Source: a virus
Taxonomy: Duplodnaviria > Heunggongvirae > Uroviricota > Caudoviricetes
DNA: 7,415 nucleotides
Virus record (IMG/VR): IMGVR_UViG_2706794698_000011
Direction: 5' to 3' (one strand)
In this document: in pieces, positions 1-7,415 of the stretch
How the letters are laid out: each line of letters starts with the position of its first letter
Position numbering within the stretch: the stretch's first letter is position 1
The notes under the pieces: generated by a model
What the model saw: only the letters and a program-made list of their open reading frames with translations
Database searches by the model: none
What the model was told of the DNA's origin: nothing
Translations under genes and position numbers: made by a program

Positions 1-35
1 GGGGAATATCTCCCCGGCAGCCTTCAGGGAAAAAT

Positions 36-98
36 ATCATCAGATGGCTGCTTAAAAAAAGAACAAATGGTAGTGTCCGCTATTGCCAGTACACCTCA
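36..98. repeat. Left copy of 63-bp perfect inverted repeat (partner 7353-7415)
   Basis: Reverse complement of 7353-7415 is identical to 36-98; identity stops at pos 99 / 7352. The right copy is cut by the window end, so the repeat may be longer outward. Confidence 0.9.
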
Positions 99-297
99 TC
101 CATCACCGAAAAAAATTGGCTTTTACACCATTGGCGATAAAAGCATTTACCTGTATGACCTACGCCGCATGGATGAAATCATGGAGGCTCTTGATAATCG
201 TTCGTCGATGGATTGGTGTGTTGCTGTTCATGATATGAATGCAGGGTTTGATGAAAAGATTTTGTTCCCCTCATCAGTTGAAAGCACTGCGGGTTAA
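67..297 (+). CDS. Hypothetical small protein (76 aa)
   Basis: ORF with plausible enteric codon usage; no clear Shine-Dalgarno; first 10 codons lie inside the inverted repeat; its stop overlaps the SD of the next ORF. Confidence 0.4.
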   Translation: MVVSAIASTPHPSPKKIGFYTIGDKSIYLYDLRRMDEIMEALDNRSSMDWCVAVHDMNAGFDEKILFPSSVESTAG

Positions 298-931: not shown

Positions 932-999
932 TGCAGCGGGTGCTTGAGGCTATCTGTCTCAGGCATGAACACCAAAAGGCAGATAGAGAAAAGCCCCAG

Positions 1000-1059
1000 T
1001 TAACATTACGCGTCCGGCAAGACGCTTAACATTAATCTGAGGCTCAATCTATGAACGGC
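1000..1059 (-). ncRNA. sok: Candidate Sok-like antisense RNA (approximate ends)
   Basis: Minus-strand promoter inside mok: -35 TTGCCT (complement of 1089-1094), 17-nt spacer, -10 TAACCT (complement of 1066-1071); transcript would cover the mok start and SD; hairpin 1010-1025 on the antisense strand. Ends inferred, not measured. Confidence 0.4.
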
Positions 1060-1263
1060 AAATCTAGGTTAGCCTCTTACGTGCCGAAAGGCAAGGAGAA
1101 GCAGGCTATGAAGCAGCAAAAGGCGATGTTAATCGCCCTGATCGTCATCTGTTTAACCGTCATAGTGACGGCACTGGTAACGAGGAAAGACCTCTGCGAG
1201 GTACGAATTCGAACCGGCCAGACGGAGGTCGCTGTCTTCACAGCTTACGAACCTGAGGAGTAA
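1051..1263 (+). CDS. mok: mok-like overlapping reading frame (modulator of killing)
   Basis: 70-codon ORF whose last 51 codons are hok in the same frame; GAGG at 1039-1042; architecture matches the hok/mok/sok loci. Confidence 0.6.
   Translation: MNGKSRLASYVPKGKEKQAMKQQKAMLIALIVICLTVIVTALVTRKDLCEVRIRTGQTEVAVFTAYEPEE
1108..1263 (+). CDS. hok: Hok/Gef-family type I toxin (51 aa)
   Basis: MKQQKAMLIALIVICLTVIVTALVTRKDLCEVRIRTGQTEVAVFTAYEPEE carries the Hok signature (TM helix, TRK.LCE.R.R.G..EVA.F.AYE); AGGAG at 1094-1098. Confidence 0.9.
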   Translation: MKQQKAMLIALIVICLTVIVTALVTRKDLCEVRIRTGQTEVAVFTAYEPEE

Positions 1264-2899: not shown

Positions 2900-3280
2900 A
2901 TGACCGAGCGCATAGAATTTGTTTTACCTTACCCGCCGACGGTGAACACTTACTGGCGTCGTCGTGGCAGCACATATTTTGTATCAAAAGCCGGGGAGCG
3001 TTATCGCCGGGCAGTGGCGCTTATTGTTCGCCAGCAGCGGCTGAAATTAAGCCTGTCCGGAAGGTTGGCAATAAAAATTATTGCAGAACCACCGGATAAG
3101 CGCCGCCGTGACCTGGACAATATTCTGAAAGCGCCGCTGGATGCGCTGACGCATGCGGGGTTGCTAATGGACGATGAGCAGTTTGATGAAATCAATATCG
3201 TTCGTGCTCAGCCAGTATCTGGTGGACGTCTGGGGGTGAAGATTTATCCCATAATGCTTGAAGGGCAGGTCAAAAAATGA
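2900..3280 (+). CDS. rusA: RusA-family Holliday junction resolvase (126 aa)
   Basis: LPYPPTVN...PDKRRRDLDNILKAPLDALTHAGLLMDDEQ matches RusA conserved blocks including the catalytic acidic residues (DLDN, DD); start abuts the upstream stop. Confidence 0.85.
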   Translation: MTERIEFVLPYPPTVNTYWRRRGSTYFVSKAGERYRRAVALIVRQQRLKLSLSGRLAIKIIAEPPDKRRRDLDNILKAPLDALTHAGLLMDDEQFDEINIVRAQPVSGGRLGVKIYPIMLEGQVKK

Positions 3281-4026
3281 AACTGGAAGATTTACCGAAA
3301 TACTACTCCCCAAAATCCCCCGGCCTGACTGATGCATCGGCCTCAACGTCGAAAGATGCGCTGAGTATCACTGATGTGATGGCCGCGCAGGGCATGACAC
3401 AGAATCGGGCTGAGATGGGGGTTTCTGCGTTCCTTGGGAAAATGGGCATTAGTATGAATGACAGAGAGCGGGCAACAGAATTGCTGACAGAATATGCACT
3501 CAGTCGGTGTGATCGCGTGGCGGCGTTAAGAAAACTCCCGGCAGAAATAAAACCGGCAGTGATGCGTATTATGGCTTCGTATGCGTTTGAAGATTATGCC
3601 CGTAGCGCGGCGAGCAAAAAACANNNNNNNNNNNNNNNNNNNNNNNNNNNNNNNNNNNNNNNNNNNNNNNNNNNNNNNNNNNNNNNNNNNNNNNNNNNNN
3701 NNNNNNNNNNNNNNNNNNNNNNNNNNNNNNNNNNNNNNNNNNNNNNNNNNNNNNNNNNNNNNNNNNNNNNNNNNNNNNNNNNNNNNNNNNNNNNNNNNNN
3801 NNNNNNNNNNNNNNNNNNNNNNNNNNNNNNNNNNNNNNNNNNNNNNNNNNNNNNNNNNNNNNNNNNNNNNNNNNNNNNNNNNNNNNNNNNNATATGCGAG
3901 GTGACAAACCAGATAACACGCGCGTCATGGGAAAAAACAGTTAAGAAATTTTATGATGCGCTGGTGACCCGGTTTGATATTGAAGAAGCATGGGCTGAGC
4001 GGCAGTTAAAAAAGGTAACTAGGTAA
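3277..4026 (+). CDS. Q: Lambda-Q-family late antitermination protein (central 268 nt masked)
   Basis: N-terminus KYYSPKSPGLTD...DVMAAQGM and C-terminus KTVKKFYDALVTRFDIEE...KKVTR parallel lambda Q (FHSPKSP..., TVKPLYDALV...AVTR); ATGA overlap with rusA; frame is maintained across the mask 3624-3891. Confidence 0.8.
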   Translation: MKLEDLPKYYSPKSPGLTDASASTSKDALSITDVMAAQGMTQNRAEMGVSAFLGKMGISMNDRERATELLTEYALSRCDRVAALRKLPAEIKPAVMRIMASYAFEDYARSAASKKXXXXXXXXXXXXXXXXXXXXXXXXXXXXXXXXXXXXXXXXXXXXXXXXXXXXXXXXXXXXXXXXXXXXXXXXXXXXXXXXXXXXXXXXXXICEVTNQITRASWEKTVKKFYDALVTRFDIEEAWAERQLKKVTR

Positions 4027-4505: not shown

Positions 4506-4858
4506 CATCTGCTCATGCGTTGGGTTCACAAGCAAACCTCAGGCCCACTGCTTTGCGCAAAAGCAGAATGAGCCTATCAGAGACAGGCTTAATGATCCAT
4601 GCTTAATANNNNNNNNNNNNNNNNNNNNNNNNNNNNNNNNNNNNNNNNNNNNNNNNNNNNNNNNNNNNNNNNNNNNNNNNNNNNNNNNNNNNNNNNNNNN
4701 NNNNNNNNNNNNNNNNNNNNNNNNNNNNNNNNNNNNNNNNNNNNNNNNNNNNNNNNNNNNNNNNNNNNNNNNNNNNNNNNNNNNNNNNNNNNNNNNNNNN
4801 NNNNNNNNNNNNNNNNNNNNNNNNNNNNNNNNNNNNNNNNNNNNNNNNNNNNNNNNNN

Positions 4859-5700: not shown

Positions 5701-5776
5701 CGGCCCTTTAGCTCAGTGGTGAGAGCGAGCGACTCATAATCGCCAGGTCGCTGGTTCAAATCCAGCAAGGGCCACC
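5701..5776 (+). tRNA. tRNA with CAU anticodon, closest by eye to tRNA-Ile2 (lysidine) of the ileX type; tRNA-Met not excluded
   Basis: Full cloverleaf can be drawn: acceptor GGCCCTT/AAGGGCC, D-arm GCTC...GAGC, anticodon loop CTCATAA, T-arm GCTGG-TTCAAAT-CCAGC, 3' ACCA. Confidence 0.85.
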
Positions 5777-5783
5777 ATCACAT

Positions 5784-5818: not shown

Positions 5819-6148
5819 NNNNNNNNNNNNNNNNNNNNNNNNNNNNNNNNNNNNNNNNNNNNNNNNNNNNNNNNNNNNNNNNNNNNNNNNNNNNNNNNNN
5901 NNNNNNNNNNNNNNNNNNNNNNNNNNNNNNNNNNNNNNNNNNNNNNNNNNNNNNNNNNNNNNNNNNNNNNNNNNNNNNNNNNNNNNNNNNNNNNNNNNNN
6001 NNNNNNNNNNNNNNNNNNNNNNNNNNNNNNNNNNNNNNNNNNNNNNNNNNNNNNNNNNNNNNNNNNNNTTTTAAATACTTCACAATTCAGGCGGTTGACT
6101 GTTGTCTGGTTTGCGGGGAGTTTGTTAAAAGAAACTGGCATGGTGAAT

Positions 6149-6292
6149 CCCCCTGTGCGGAGGGGCAATCAGCGAGTAGGTATATGGGATAATCGCGGAT
6201 TCAGGTGCTGGTACTGAATTCACCGGGAGGCACCCGGCATCATGCAATGGCACATAGCGCCACTCTCCAGCCCTCTCCGGAGGGGCTTTTCT
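6149..6292 (+). other. GC-rich hairpin-dense non-coding stretch (candidate structured RNA or regulatory leader)
   Basis: Four local hairpins (6150-6165, 6197-6221, 6223-6237, 6270-6286), the last followed by CTTTTCT; no ORF over 30 codons on either strand. Confidence 0.3.
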
Positions 6293-6681
6293 GTGCCGGA
6301 TACATCACAGTTTCTGGAACCTTAGGTACTACAGTATCAGTCAGGGTGCTATATTTTCAGATGTGATGAAAGCCTGTCAGCAGGCAGGGCGTATCGGAAA
6401 TGACCCAGTAGAGAAAACNNNNNNNNNNNNNNNNNNNNNNNNNNNNNNNNNNNNNNNNNNNNNNNNNNNNNNNNNNNNNNNNNNNNNNNNNNNNNNNNNN
6501 NNNNNNNNNNNNNNNNNNNNNNNNNNNNNNNNNNNNNNNNNNNNNNNNNNNNNNNNNNNNNNNNNNNNNNNNNNNNNNNNNNNNNNNNNNNNNNNNNNNN
6601 NNNNNNNNNNNNNNNNNNNNNNNNNNNNNNNNNNNNNNNNNNNNNNNNNNNNNNNNNNNNNNNNNNNNNNNNNNNNNNNNN

Positions 6682-6981
6682 TTGCAGAGTGCAACGGTTA
6701 TTAAAGCATTCATTCAATACGTTATCTGTATTTGTAGGGCATTCCTGGCTATTTTTGATTGAATTCCAGAATGTTTTATTGAATGGTACTACGTTGTAAA
6801 TGGTTACAGGTAGCACTTTGTTATTGAGCATGATGCCTGTGTGAGTCAGTGTAAATATACTTTCAGGAGGTAAGAAAGCATCCGATTGATACCAGATTAT
6901 TAATTTTATTTTACTCCATATGACTGAAAAAGATATTCCGCATGATGGCTGGATAACTGTATCAATCACAATCCACTTCAT
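6682..6981 (-). CDS. AT-rich hypothetical protein (at least 100 aa visible; 3' part enters mask 6419-6681)
   Basis: ATG at 6981 with AAGGAAAC SD (complement of 6985-6992); about 35 percent GC versus over 50 percent around it; AT-biased codons (ATA, AAA, TTA, AAT); uninterrupted 100-codon ORF in AT-rich DNA. Confidence 0.6.
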
Positions 6982-7243
6982 TTAGTTTCCTTNNNNNNNN
7001 NNNNNNNNNNNNNNNNNNNNNNNNNNNNNNNNNNNNNNNNNNNNNNNNNNNNNNNNNNNNNNNNNNNNNNNNNNNNNNNNNNNNNNNNNNNNNNNNNNNN
7101 NNNNNNNNNNNNNNNNNNNNNNNNNNNNNNNNNNNNNNNNNNNNNNNNNNNNNNNNNNNNNNNNNNNNNNNNNNNNNNNNNNNNNNNNNNNNNNNNNNNN
7201 NNNNNNNNNNNNNNNNNNNNNNNNNNNNNNNNNNNNNNNNNNT

Positions 7244-7399
7244 GATGTTGTCAGGGCGGCGCCGCCGTCAGATCTTGCGGAAAAGCTGACACATAAACTG
7301 AAAGAGGGCTGGCAGCCGTTTGGTAGTCCGGTGGCCATAACCCCTTATACCCTGAGGTGTACTGGCAATAGCGGACACTACCATTTGTTCTTTTTTTAA
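7244..7399 (+). CDS. 3' end of a hypothetical protein (5' part inside mask 6993-7242)
   Basis: Open frame from the mask edge to TAA 7397-7399 with enteric codon usage (...KLKEGWQPFGSPVAITPYTLRCTGNSGHYHLFFF); the last 14 codons lie in the inverted repeat. Confidence 0.5.
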   Translation, partial: DVVRAAPPSDLAEKLTHKLKEGWQPFGSPVAITPYTLRCTGNSGHYHLFFF

Positions 7400-7415
7400 G
7401 CAGCCATCTGATGAT
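7353..7415. repeat. Right copy of 63-bp perfect inverted repeat (partner 36-98)
   Basis: Exact reverse-complement match to 36-98; contains the last 14 codons and stop of the + strand ORF ending at 7399. Confidence 0.9.

What the first reader, a model, noticed from the sequence alone, without database searches (positions are those of the whole stretch)
6682..6992. AT-rich cargo gene of unknown function in the toxin slot, oriented against late transcription
A minus-strand ORF with a strong SD starts at 6981 and stays open for at least 100 codons in DNA of about 35 percent GC, embedded in sequence above 50 percent GC. The compositional break and opposite orientation mark it as a separately acquired moron with its own promoter, which would be hidden in mask 6993-7242. 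I could not assign its product to any family by eye. It occupies the position where Stx phages carry toxin genes, so an accessory toxin, defence or virulence function is plausible. Masks on both sides prevent seeing its full length or partners.
Basis: partly seen in the sequence, partly recalled or inferred. Interest (0 to 1): 0.65.

Follow-up and report, generated by a model that had tools for sequence, protein, structure and literature searches.

The report
Known prophage gene iraL, RpoS stabiliser
The AT-rich backward-facing gene is iraL, an already characterised prophage-borne protein that blocks the RssB adaptor so that the stress sigma factor RpoS escapes degradation; it is real and sits where Shiga-toxin phages carry their toxin genes, but it is not a toxin and not new.

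Summary
A minus-strand ORF starts at 6981 behind an AAGGA Shine-Dalgarno sequence. It is open for all 100 visible codons, at 35% GC in a 50% GC background.

It is not an unknown. It is iraL, the IraM-family RssB anti-adaptor described in UPEC CFT073 and Shigella sonnei (Hryckowian 2014):
- The visible DNA differs from CFT073 iraL at 3 of 311 bases.
- It scores 143 bits on NCBIfam "anti-adapter protein IraM" (cut-off 121).
- It is 62% identical to K-12 IraM.
- A model of a 97%-identical relative superposes on IraM in the IraM-RssB crystal structure (TM 0.90).

Relatives with 100% identical visible sequence give a full 111-aa ORF.

The gene plus its promoter forms a discrete AT-rich cassette of about 630 bp between an STnc100 sRNA and the nanS-p esterase gene. 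In Stx2 phages the same slot, Q-tRNAs-[cargo]-esterase-holin, holds stx2AB.

The window carries the Shigella allele (L74S) and lies between two IS600 copies.

The moron and position ideas are right. The toxin or defence guess is not: this is a host stress-response modulator. Verdict: already known, low interest.

One side observation: four invariant cysteines in the C-terminal tail are the best-conserved feature of the whole family. I found no discussion of them in the papers I checked.

The parts
6646..6981 (-). iraL coding sequence, 111 codons plus stop. 6682-6981 is visible; the last 11 codons and the stop (ICPYGLKQQSP*) lie in the left mask, so 6646 is a nominal coordinate counted from the mask edge.
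   Evidence: NCBIfam NF007393 at 143 bits (cut-off 121); 3 of 311 nt differ from CFT073 iraL; full ORF read in L011, L013 and L014, which are 100% identical over the visible part.
6988..6992 (-). Shine-Dalgarno AAGGA, 6 nt before the ATG
   Evidence: Read directly from the sequence.
6982..7014 (-). 33-nt 5' UTR. The transcription start is at nominal 7014, which is 22 nt inside the right mask.
   Evidence: The 5' RACE end ACATCACCAGCAAGGCATAAACAAGGAAACCA from PMC4045071 was found in L001 with one mismatch and in L011-L015.
7020..7048 (-). iraL promoter: -10 TACTTT (7020-7025; an overlapping TATACT is also possible) and -35 TTTACA (7043-7048). It is masked in the window and inferred from relatives.
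   Evidence: the paper assigns it to sigma-70. The simple consensus scan does not call it.
6109..6298 (+). STnc100-family prophage sRNA gene with a terminator hairpin, convergent with iraL
   Evidence: Rfam RF02076 at 122.5 bits, gathering score 47. In CFT073-like loci and in L011 its 3' end lies about 25-30 nt from the iraL stop.
5702..5777 (+). ileZ-type tRNA (anticodon CAU), first of the ileZ-argN-argO set downstream of Q. The two tRNA-Arg genes are masked.
   Evidence: annotation of relatives.
7226..7352 (+). 5' fragment of the DUF1737/nanS-p (sialate O-acetylesterase) late gene, cut off by IS600. The ATG is at nominal 7226, inside the mask.
   Evidence: 73% identical to the N-terminus of the 645-aa ORF downstream of stx2B in phage F723.
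7353..7415 (+). Terminal 63 nt (IRR end) of an IS600 copy
1..98 (-). IRR end of a second IS600 copy, inverted relative to the first
   Evidence: 0 mismatches in 98 nt against IS600 of L009; E. coli prophage homology starts at 99.
3277..4026 (+). Late antiterminator Q, which drives the rightward late transcript that iraL opposes. It is 822 nt in all relatives; the mask shortens it here.

Best explanation
The ORF is iraL, a prophage-borne member of the IraM/IraL/RssC family of RssB anti-adaptors. It is transcribed leftward from its own sigma-70-type promoter, independently of phage late transcription. Its 111-aa product has a PmrD-like beta-barrel plus helix (residues 1-78) and a cysteine-rich tail. 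The protein binds the N-terminal receiver domain of RssB. This most likely happens on the alpha4-beta5-alpha5 face where sigma-S docks, so RssB can no longer hand sigma-S (RpoS) to ClpXP. Sigma-S is therefore stabilised during unstressed logarithmic growth, and the lysogen enters stress with the general stress response partly primed. It is a lysogenic-conversion moron in the same late-region slot that holds stx in Stx phages. Shown by others: the RssB interaction, sigma-S half-life of about 5 versus 2.5 min in CFT073, lower log-phase sigma-S in CFT073 and S. sonnei deletion mutants, and the transcription start. Shown here: the gene's identity, fold, cassette boundaries, slot and allele. Inferred: the contact surface, and activity of this particular copy.
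For: Identity: 1446 of 5426 genomes carry it, annotated as IraM. The CFT073 potB-prophage gene, WP_000871291.1, differs at 3 of 311 visible nt. NCBIfam IraM scores 143 bits against a cut-off of 121. It matches K-12 IraM at 66 identities, which is 58.9% of 112 and equals the published IraL/IraM figure. Fold: PDB 8TWD IraM hits at E 9e-32; the AF2 model has TM 0.90 and 1.2 A to 8TWD_A and TM 0.73 to PmrD 4HN7. Interface: all 5 IraM cluster-I residues that touch the RssB N-terminal domain are identical (I4, I6, W22, K26, I42). The clusters that touch the C-terminal domain and linker carry T13S, L75I, H63N and I64V. That pattern fits the report that IraL binds only the RssB N-terminal domain. Promoter: the RACE 5' end and promoter are present in relatives with 100% identical flanks. 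Allele: the exact S74 protein is named IraM in Shigella sonnei/Shigella and seen on at least 999 contigs. Position 74 is variable and often polar across the wider family. Function: experiments in PMC4045071.
Against: No experiment was done on this copy. The promoter and the last 11 codons are masked in the window and known only from relatives. L74S replaces a residue that is L or I in all close family clusters and sits next to contact residue 75. I could not confirm that the S. sonnei strain tested in 2014 carries S74. The prophage is degraded: IS600 sits at both ends and nanS-p is truncated. The sequence downstream of the gene differs from CFT073 and is hidden.
Confidence: 0.9

Rival explanations
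1. It is iraL by descent, but this copy is a functionally weakened or silent passenger in a decaying, IS600-riddled prophage remnant. L74S, or altered flanking DNA, would impair activity or expression.
For: L74S lies at a position that is L or I in 15 of 15 close clusters, next to IraM contact residue L75. IS600 copies bracket the segment and truncate the neighbouring gene. The 3' flank differs from CFT073, and related contigs carry another IS600 56 nt beyond the visible 134-nt piece.
Against: The ORF is intact in relatives identical over the visible part, and so is the promoter. The S74 allele is the widespread Shigella form, on at least 999 contigs. Deleting iraL in S. sonnei lowered log-phase sigma-S. 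Position 74 is freely variable and often polar in distant relatives.
Confidence: 0.07
2. It is a PmrD-like connector that acts mainly on a response regulator other than RssB, for example by protecting a phosphorylated receiver domain as PmrD does for PmrA.
For: The fold is shared with PmrD, TM 0.73. IraM raises RssB phosphorylation, a PmrD-like property. Precomputed Pfam labels family members PF11183.
Against: Sequence identity to PmrD is only 13-20%. IraL co-purifies with RssB, and its deletion halves sigma-S half-life. All RssB N-terminal-domain contact residues are conserved.
Confidence: 0.02
3. It is an accessory toxin or anti-phage defence gene, as the first reader suggested from its position in the stx slot.
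For: Position only.
Against: No PADLOC match at E up to 1. PHROG 4407 carries no function label. It is a clear member of a characterised regulatory family. It has no signal peptide and no partner gene. It was cloned and expressed in K-12 without reported toxicity.
Confidence: 0.01

Closest known systems
IraL of uropathogenic E. coli CFT073 (potB prophage; WP_000871291.1; Hryckowian et al. 2014, PMC4045071)
   Same: Same gene: 99% nucleotide identity over the visible 311 nt, 99 of 100 visible residues identical, the same 5' UTR, and the same slot between STnc100 and DUF1737/nanS-p in a lambdoid prophage.
   Different: The window has L74S (the Shigella allele), one silent change and one 5' UTR change (T where CFT073 has C, 3 nt before the ATG). 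It has a different arrangement downstream of the stop, and IS600 copies bracket the segment.
IraM (YcgW) of E. coli K-12, the PhoPQ/Mg2+-starvation-induced RssB anti-adaptor; structure 8TWD
   Same: Homologous: 62% identity over 107 aa with no gaps. Same PmrD-like fold, same target RssB, and the same invariant Cys4 tail.
   Different: The upstream regions cannot be aligned, so regulation differs: iraL is active in log phase, iraM is stress-induced. IraM contacts both RssB domains, whereas IraL contacts only the N-terminal domain in two-hybrid assays. IraM lies next to e14, not in a lambdoid late region, and has no STnc100 nearby.
RssC of Salmonella (IraM/IraL-like anti-adaptor)
   Same: Same family according to the literature, 47-49% identity. 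A profile search finds 48 clusters at E up to 1e-10 with the same length and Cys4 motif.
   Different: I did not identify it by name here, because the library carries no names. It is reported to be restricted to Salmonella.
PmrD (connector protein protecting phospho-PmrA)
   Same: Same unusual beta-barrel plus helix fold (TM 0.73). Both bind a receiver domain.
   Different: Only 13-20% identity, no Cys4 tail, a different target and a different outcome.
stx1/stx2 and other cargo of the Q-tRNA-[cargo]-nanS-p-lysis slot of lambdoid phages
   Same: Same genomic slot, with homologous flanks: ileZ-argN-argO at 93% identity and the nanS-p N-terminus at 73% amino-acid identity.
   Different: stx is co-oriented with Q-dependent late transcription and driven by it. 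iraL is convergent with that transcription and has its own promoter. The product is a regulator, not a toxin.

Membership tests
IraM/IraL family (NCBIfam NF007393, anti-adapter protein IraM) | Sequence match to the family profile above its curated cut-off | tested here: met
   Visible 100 aa: 143.1 bits, E 3.5e-42, cut-off 121. Full-length relative: 162 bits.
iraL (as opposed to iraM), operational criterion of Hryckowian 2014 | At least 95% nucleotide identity to CFT073 iraL over the coding region, and about 59% amino-acid identity to K-12 IraM | tested here: met
   2 mismatches in the 300 visible coding nt against CFT073. 66 identities to K-12 IraM, which is 58.9% of 112. The last 36 nt are masked but identical in relatives.
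iraL | Own sigma-70-type promoter with the transcription start 33 nt upstream of the ATG | tested here: inconclusive
   The visible 11 nt of the UTR match. The rest is masked in the window. It is present and intact in five contigs whose visible flanks are 100% identical.
IraM/IraL family | [quoted passage not shown] | tested here: met
   AF2 model of the 97%-identical representative: pLDDT 79-93 (ten-residue block means) over residues 1-80, TM 0.90 and rmsd 1.2 A to 8TWD_A.
IraM/IraL family | Conservation of the residues that contact RssB in the IraM-RssB crystal structure | tested here: met
   Cluster I (N-terminal-domain face) 5 of 5 identical; cluster II 3 of 5 plus 2 conservative changes; cluster III 2 of 4; Pro66 identical.
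RssB anti-adaptors (functional class) | Physical binding to RssB and stabilisation of sigma-S against ClpXP | not testable with these tools
   Shown for the CFT073 allele and by an S. sonnei deletion in PMC4045071. Not shown for this copy.
Anti-phage defence systems (PADLOC) | Match to any known defence protein model | tested here: not met
   No family at E up to 1.
Pfam PF11183 (PmrD) | Match to the Pfam model | tested here: not met
   The local Pfam-A scan finds nothing for IraL or for K-12 IraM, even at E up to 10. The precomputed table lists PF11183.15 for all family members. This looks like a version or threshold discrepancy.

The most novel reading that the evidence does not exclude
The C-terminal tail is not a dispensable floppy appendage. 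It may be a metal- or redox-sensitive module that sets the stability or activity of the anti-adaptor, which would give sigma-S proteolysis an extra signal input. The tail is partly visible in the window as C81, C92 and C97. It carries the motif C-P-x9/10-C-x4/5-C-x4-C-P-Y-G. Across 35 representatives only 21-63% identical to IraL, its cysteines are the most conserved residues of the whole family: W72, C81, C97 and C102 are invariant, and C92 is conserved in at least 90%. The tail was removed for the IraM-RssB crystal structure because it was proteolytically unstable. For this prophage copy the module would combine with a convergent arrangement against Q-dependent late transcription, which could switch the gene off on induction.
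Probability: 0.2. Interest if true: 0.4.

Novelty: already known. Interest (0 to 1): 0.13.

Why it matters
It matters mostly as a correction. A gene flagged as an unknown possible toxin is a characterised regulator, so no discovery claim should be built on it.

Three modest additions come out of the analysis:
- iraL occupies exactly the stx cargo slot of lambdoid prophages. It forms a cassette of about 630 bp bounded by the STnc100 terminator and the nanS-p start codon. This gives a structural reason why the 2014 study found iraL under-represented in EHEC/STEC.
- The pattern of conserved and substituted RssB-contact residues explains why IraL binds only the RssB N-terminal domain.
- The four tail cysteines are the most conserved feature of the family, yet I found no discussion of them in the papers I checked.

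Tried and rejected
- Unmasking by gapped exact patterns across the left mask found nothing in genome contigs, viral contigs or metagenome contigs. This was later explained: the masks are not length-preserving.
- No complete E. coli genome reproduces the window's arrangement. The source is probably Shigella, which is absent from that collection.
- The afdb50 fold library was unavailable.
- Pfam gave no hit.
- The consensus promoter scan did not call the RACE-defined promoter. The promoter claim therefore rests on the published 5' RACE result plus sequence identity, not on the scan.
- The iraL and iraM upstream regions could not be aligned, so I rejected shared regulation.
- A literature search for IraM with cysteine or zinc returned nothing relevant.
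- I considered that L74S marks a dying allele. I down-weighted this because position 74 is variable in the wider family and the allele is abundant.
- I could not reconstruct what lies in the left mask beyond the last 36 nt of the gene. Related contigs suggest either a second STnc100 copy, an IS600, or both.

Full report
**Observation**

The window carries five runs of N. Between two of them, 6682-6992 is readable.

On the minus strand an ATG at 6981 follows AAGGA at 6992-6988, with a 6-nt spacer. The frame stays open for all 100 visible codons.

GC is 0.35 here, against 0.50 to the left and 0.51 to the right. It is equally low at all three codon positions.

An open frame of this length is unlikely by chance. 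For this composition the probability is about 7.5e-4 per frame, and 3 of 5000 shuffles gave one in any of six frames. Every neighbouring gene is on the plus strand.

**Identity**

Megablast of the visible 311 nt finds the gene in 1446 of 5426 complete E. coli genomes. All listed hits are annotated "anti-adapter protein IraM", and 1602 of 1603 places are chromosomal. It also finds four sequenced temperate phages.

Sequence evidence:
- In unmasked relatives the gene is 336 nt, or 111 aa.
- NCBIfam NF007393 (IraM) scores 143 bits for the visible 100 residues, against a cut-off of 121.
- K-12 IraM aligns without gaps at 66 identities. That is 58.9% of 112, the figure published for IraL against IraM.

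I then fetched the potB prophage of CFT073, the strain in which IraL was defined. Its gene (L007 8465-8800, minus strand) has the same protein accession, WP_000871291.1, as the best E. coli hits. It differs from the window at 3 of 311 nt:
- 6751 is silent.
- 6761 gives L74S.
- 6984 lies in the 5' UTR.

The window gene is therefore iraL (Hryckowian et al. 2014, PMC4045071).

**What the masks hide**

The exact 111-aa sequence with S74 exists in public data. It is named IraM of Shigella sonnei or "MULTISPECIES Shigella", and it is seen on at least 999 contigs.

An exact 34-mer covering both coding differences retrieved five IMG/VR contigs, L011-L015. They are 100% identical to the window over visible iraL and over the right flank, including the IS600 junction. 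In these contigs:
- The ORF runs on to ...ICPYGLKQQSP-stop with no interruption.
- The stretch under the right mask is 266 nt.
- That stretch contains ACATCACCAGCAAGGCATAAAC..., the 5' end mapped by RACE in CFT073, preceded by TTTACA-17-TACTTT.

It cannot be read in the window itself.

The masks do not preserve length. In a 99.9%-identical relative the hidden stretches are 340, 246 and 169 nt, where the window shows 268, 250 and 250 N. Two consequences fit this:
- Q is 750 nt in the window but 822 nt in every relative.
- The methyltransferase is out of frame by 4 nt.

I therefore give positions inside masks as nominal, counted from the nearest visible edge.

**Context and the "toxin slot"**

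Relatives read hokD, DUF968, RusA, Q, a small ORF, DNA methyltransferase, tRNA-Ile/Arg/Arg, STnc100 sRNA, iraL (minus strand), DUF1737/nanS-p esterase, holin, lysozyme.

Stx2a phage F723 reads Q, ileZ, argN, argO, stx2A, stx2B, a 645-aa nanS-p ORF, holin. Its tRNAs are 93% identical to the window's. Its nanS-p N-terminus is 73% identical to the window's fragment. The positional claim is correct.

An alignment of CFT073 with O55:H7 CB9615 defines the cassette. The two are identical up to the last base of the STnc100 terminator stem, and again from the nanS-p ATG. Between those points CFT073 has 30 nt, iraL and 260 nt of 30%-GC promoter DNA. CB9615 has an unrelated spacer of about 225 nt.

At least 80% of the 1.2-kb module around CFT073 iraL is present in 1377 genomes.

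**Mechanism**

Published experiments on CFT073 IraL show:
- co-purification with RssB;
- a two-hybrid interaction with the RssB N-terminal domain only;
- a sigma-S half-life of about 5 min, against about 2.5 min in the deletion mutant;
- lower log-phase sigma-S in CFT073 and S. sonnei deletion mutants;
- raised sigma-S in K-12 carrying iraL with 100 nt of upstream DNA.

The IraM(1-78)-RssB crystal structure (8TWD; PMC10844676) shows a PmrD-like barrel that covers the alpha4-beta5-alpha5 face of the RssB receiver domain, where sigma-S binds.

The AF2 model of the 97%-identical family representative matches 8TWD_A with TM 0.90 and rmsd 1.2 A. It matches PmrD with TM 0.73.

I mapped the published contact clusters onto IraL:
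- All five residues that contact the N-terminal domain are identical (I4, I6, W22, K26, I42).
- The clusters that contact the C-terminal domain and the linker carry T13S, L75I, H63N and I64V.

This pattern fits IraL binding only the N-terminal domain. It supports, by inference, occlusion of the sigma-S docking face as the mechanism.

**This allele**

S74 replaces a residue that is L or I in all 15 close clusters. It lies in helix 69-77, next to contact residue 75.

In 35 more distant representatives the position is variable and often polar, while position 75 stays hydrophobic. Given that, and the abundance of the allele in Shigella, I judge the substitution benign. It has not been tested directly.

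**Verdict**

This is a real gene, a real moron, in the stx-equivalent slot and with its own promoter. It is also a known, characterised regulator rather than a toxin or defence gene: PADLOC finds nothing, and PHROG 4407 is unlabelled. Novelty: already known. Interest: low.

**Side observations**

- The segment 99-7352 is bracketed by two IS600 copies with their IRR ends facing inward. One of them truncates nanS-p.
- In the window, STnc100 (6109-6298) is followed by a 134-nt piece identical to E. coli ATCC 11775, not by iraL as in CFT073. In related contigs another IS600 lies 56 nt past that piece. The left mask may therefore hide more than its length suggests.
- A profile search finds 48 family clusters at E up to 1e-10. 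Across 35 full-length representatives the only invariant residues are W72, C81, C97 and C102, with C92 and P103 at 90% or more. This contrasts with the published description of the tail as less conserved.
- With the deeper alignment, the pLDDT of the tail rises from below 50 to about 60-77.

Noticed in passing
window 6109-6298 (+); L001 7750-7939; L004 7324-7514 and 7792-8001: This is an STnc100-family prophage sRNA gene (Rfam RF02076, 122-161 bits) with its own terminator, convergent with iraL. In CFT073-like loci its terminator hairpin ends 25-30 nt from the iraL stop and could serve both genes. E. coli ATCC 11775 has two copies and no iraL. A 2026 preprint relates STnc100 to PasD, an sRNA found upstream of the esterase gene.
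   Followed up: partly
window 81-102 of the protein (DNA 6676-6741, partly masked); alignments A1, A2, A5: The IraM/IraL family has a C-terminal motif C-P-x9/10-C-x4/5-C-x4-C-P-Y-G. C81, C97 and C102 are invariant, and C92 is at 90% or more, across 35 representatives that are 21-63% identical to IraL. That is better conserved than any residue of the RssB-binding domain except W72. The IraM-RssB structure paper calls the tail less conserved and flexible, and it removed the tail. With a deeper alignment AF2 raises the tail's pLDDT from below 50 to 60-77. It may be a metal or redox module.
   Followed up: partly
window 1-98 and 7353-7415: Both ends of the window are IRR ends of IS600 (IS3 family) in inverted orientation (0 of 98 mismatches for 1-98 against IS600 of L009; 7353-7415 is 100% identical to the IS600 end in L011). 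The prophage late-region segment 99-7352 is therefore bracketed by two IS600 copies. The right-hand copy truncates the DUF1737/nanS-p gene after about 42 codons. This points to a Shigella-type degraded prophage.
   Followed up: yes
masks 3624-3891, 4609-4858, 5819-6068, 6993-7242: The N runs do not preserve the length of what they hide. Relatives that are 99.9-100% identical have 340, 246, 169 and 266 nt where the window shows 268, 250, 250 and 250 N. This explains why Q looks 72 nt short (750 against 822 nt) and why the methyltransferase appears frameshifted by 4 nt. Coordinates and frames across masks should not be trusted.
   Followed up: yes
window 6761 (codon 74 of iraL): The L74S substitution defines a Shigella allele of IraL. 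The exact protein is named from S. sonnei or multispecies Shigella and appears on at least 999 contigs. No complete E. coli genome in the collection is more than 99.4% identical over the visible 311 nt.
   Followed up: yes
window 6285-6418 and the left mask; L004 7501-7634; L036, L055, L019: Unlike CFT073, the window has a 134-nt piece between STnc100 and iraL. The piece is 100% identical to the spacer between the two STnc100 copies of ATCC 11775. In IMG/VR relatives that carry this piece, an IS600 starts 56 nt beyond it. What lies between that point and the iraL stop in the window's source is unknown.
   Followed up: partly
window 938-1263: This is a hok/sok type I toxin-antitoxin locus. Rfam sok RF01794 scores 112 bits at 938-1113, and the hokD ORF ends at 1263. 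It sits upstream of the DUF968-RusA-Q block, as in CFT073 and other relatives.
   Followed up: no
clusters P0016, P0019, P0021, P0020: Protein clusters 88%, 75% and 68-69% identical to IraL exist in E. coli. The clean iraL/iraM dichotomy reported in 2014 ('no overlap') is therefore now bridged by intermediate alleles.
   Followed up: no
L003 (K-12) 15414-16004: In the current MG1655 annotation iraM lies 268 nt outside the right boundary of cryptic prophage e14, beyond icdC, rather than on it. It has no STnc100 nearby, and its upstream region is unrelated to that of iraL.
   Followed up: partly
The precomputed Pfam column lists PF11183.15 (PmrD) for 19 of the 20 IraM/IraL family clusters returned. 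The local Pfam-A hmmscan finds no family for IraL or K-12 IraM, even at E up to 10. This is a version or threshold discrepancy in the tools.
   Followed up: partly
window 5702-5777: ARAGORN calls this tRNA 'Met (CAT)'. Relatives annotate it as tRNA-Ile (ileZ), the lysidine-modified CAU isoleucine tRNA typical of Stx-phage late regions.
   Followed up: no
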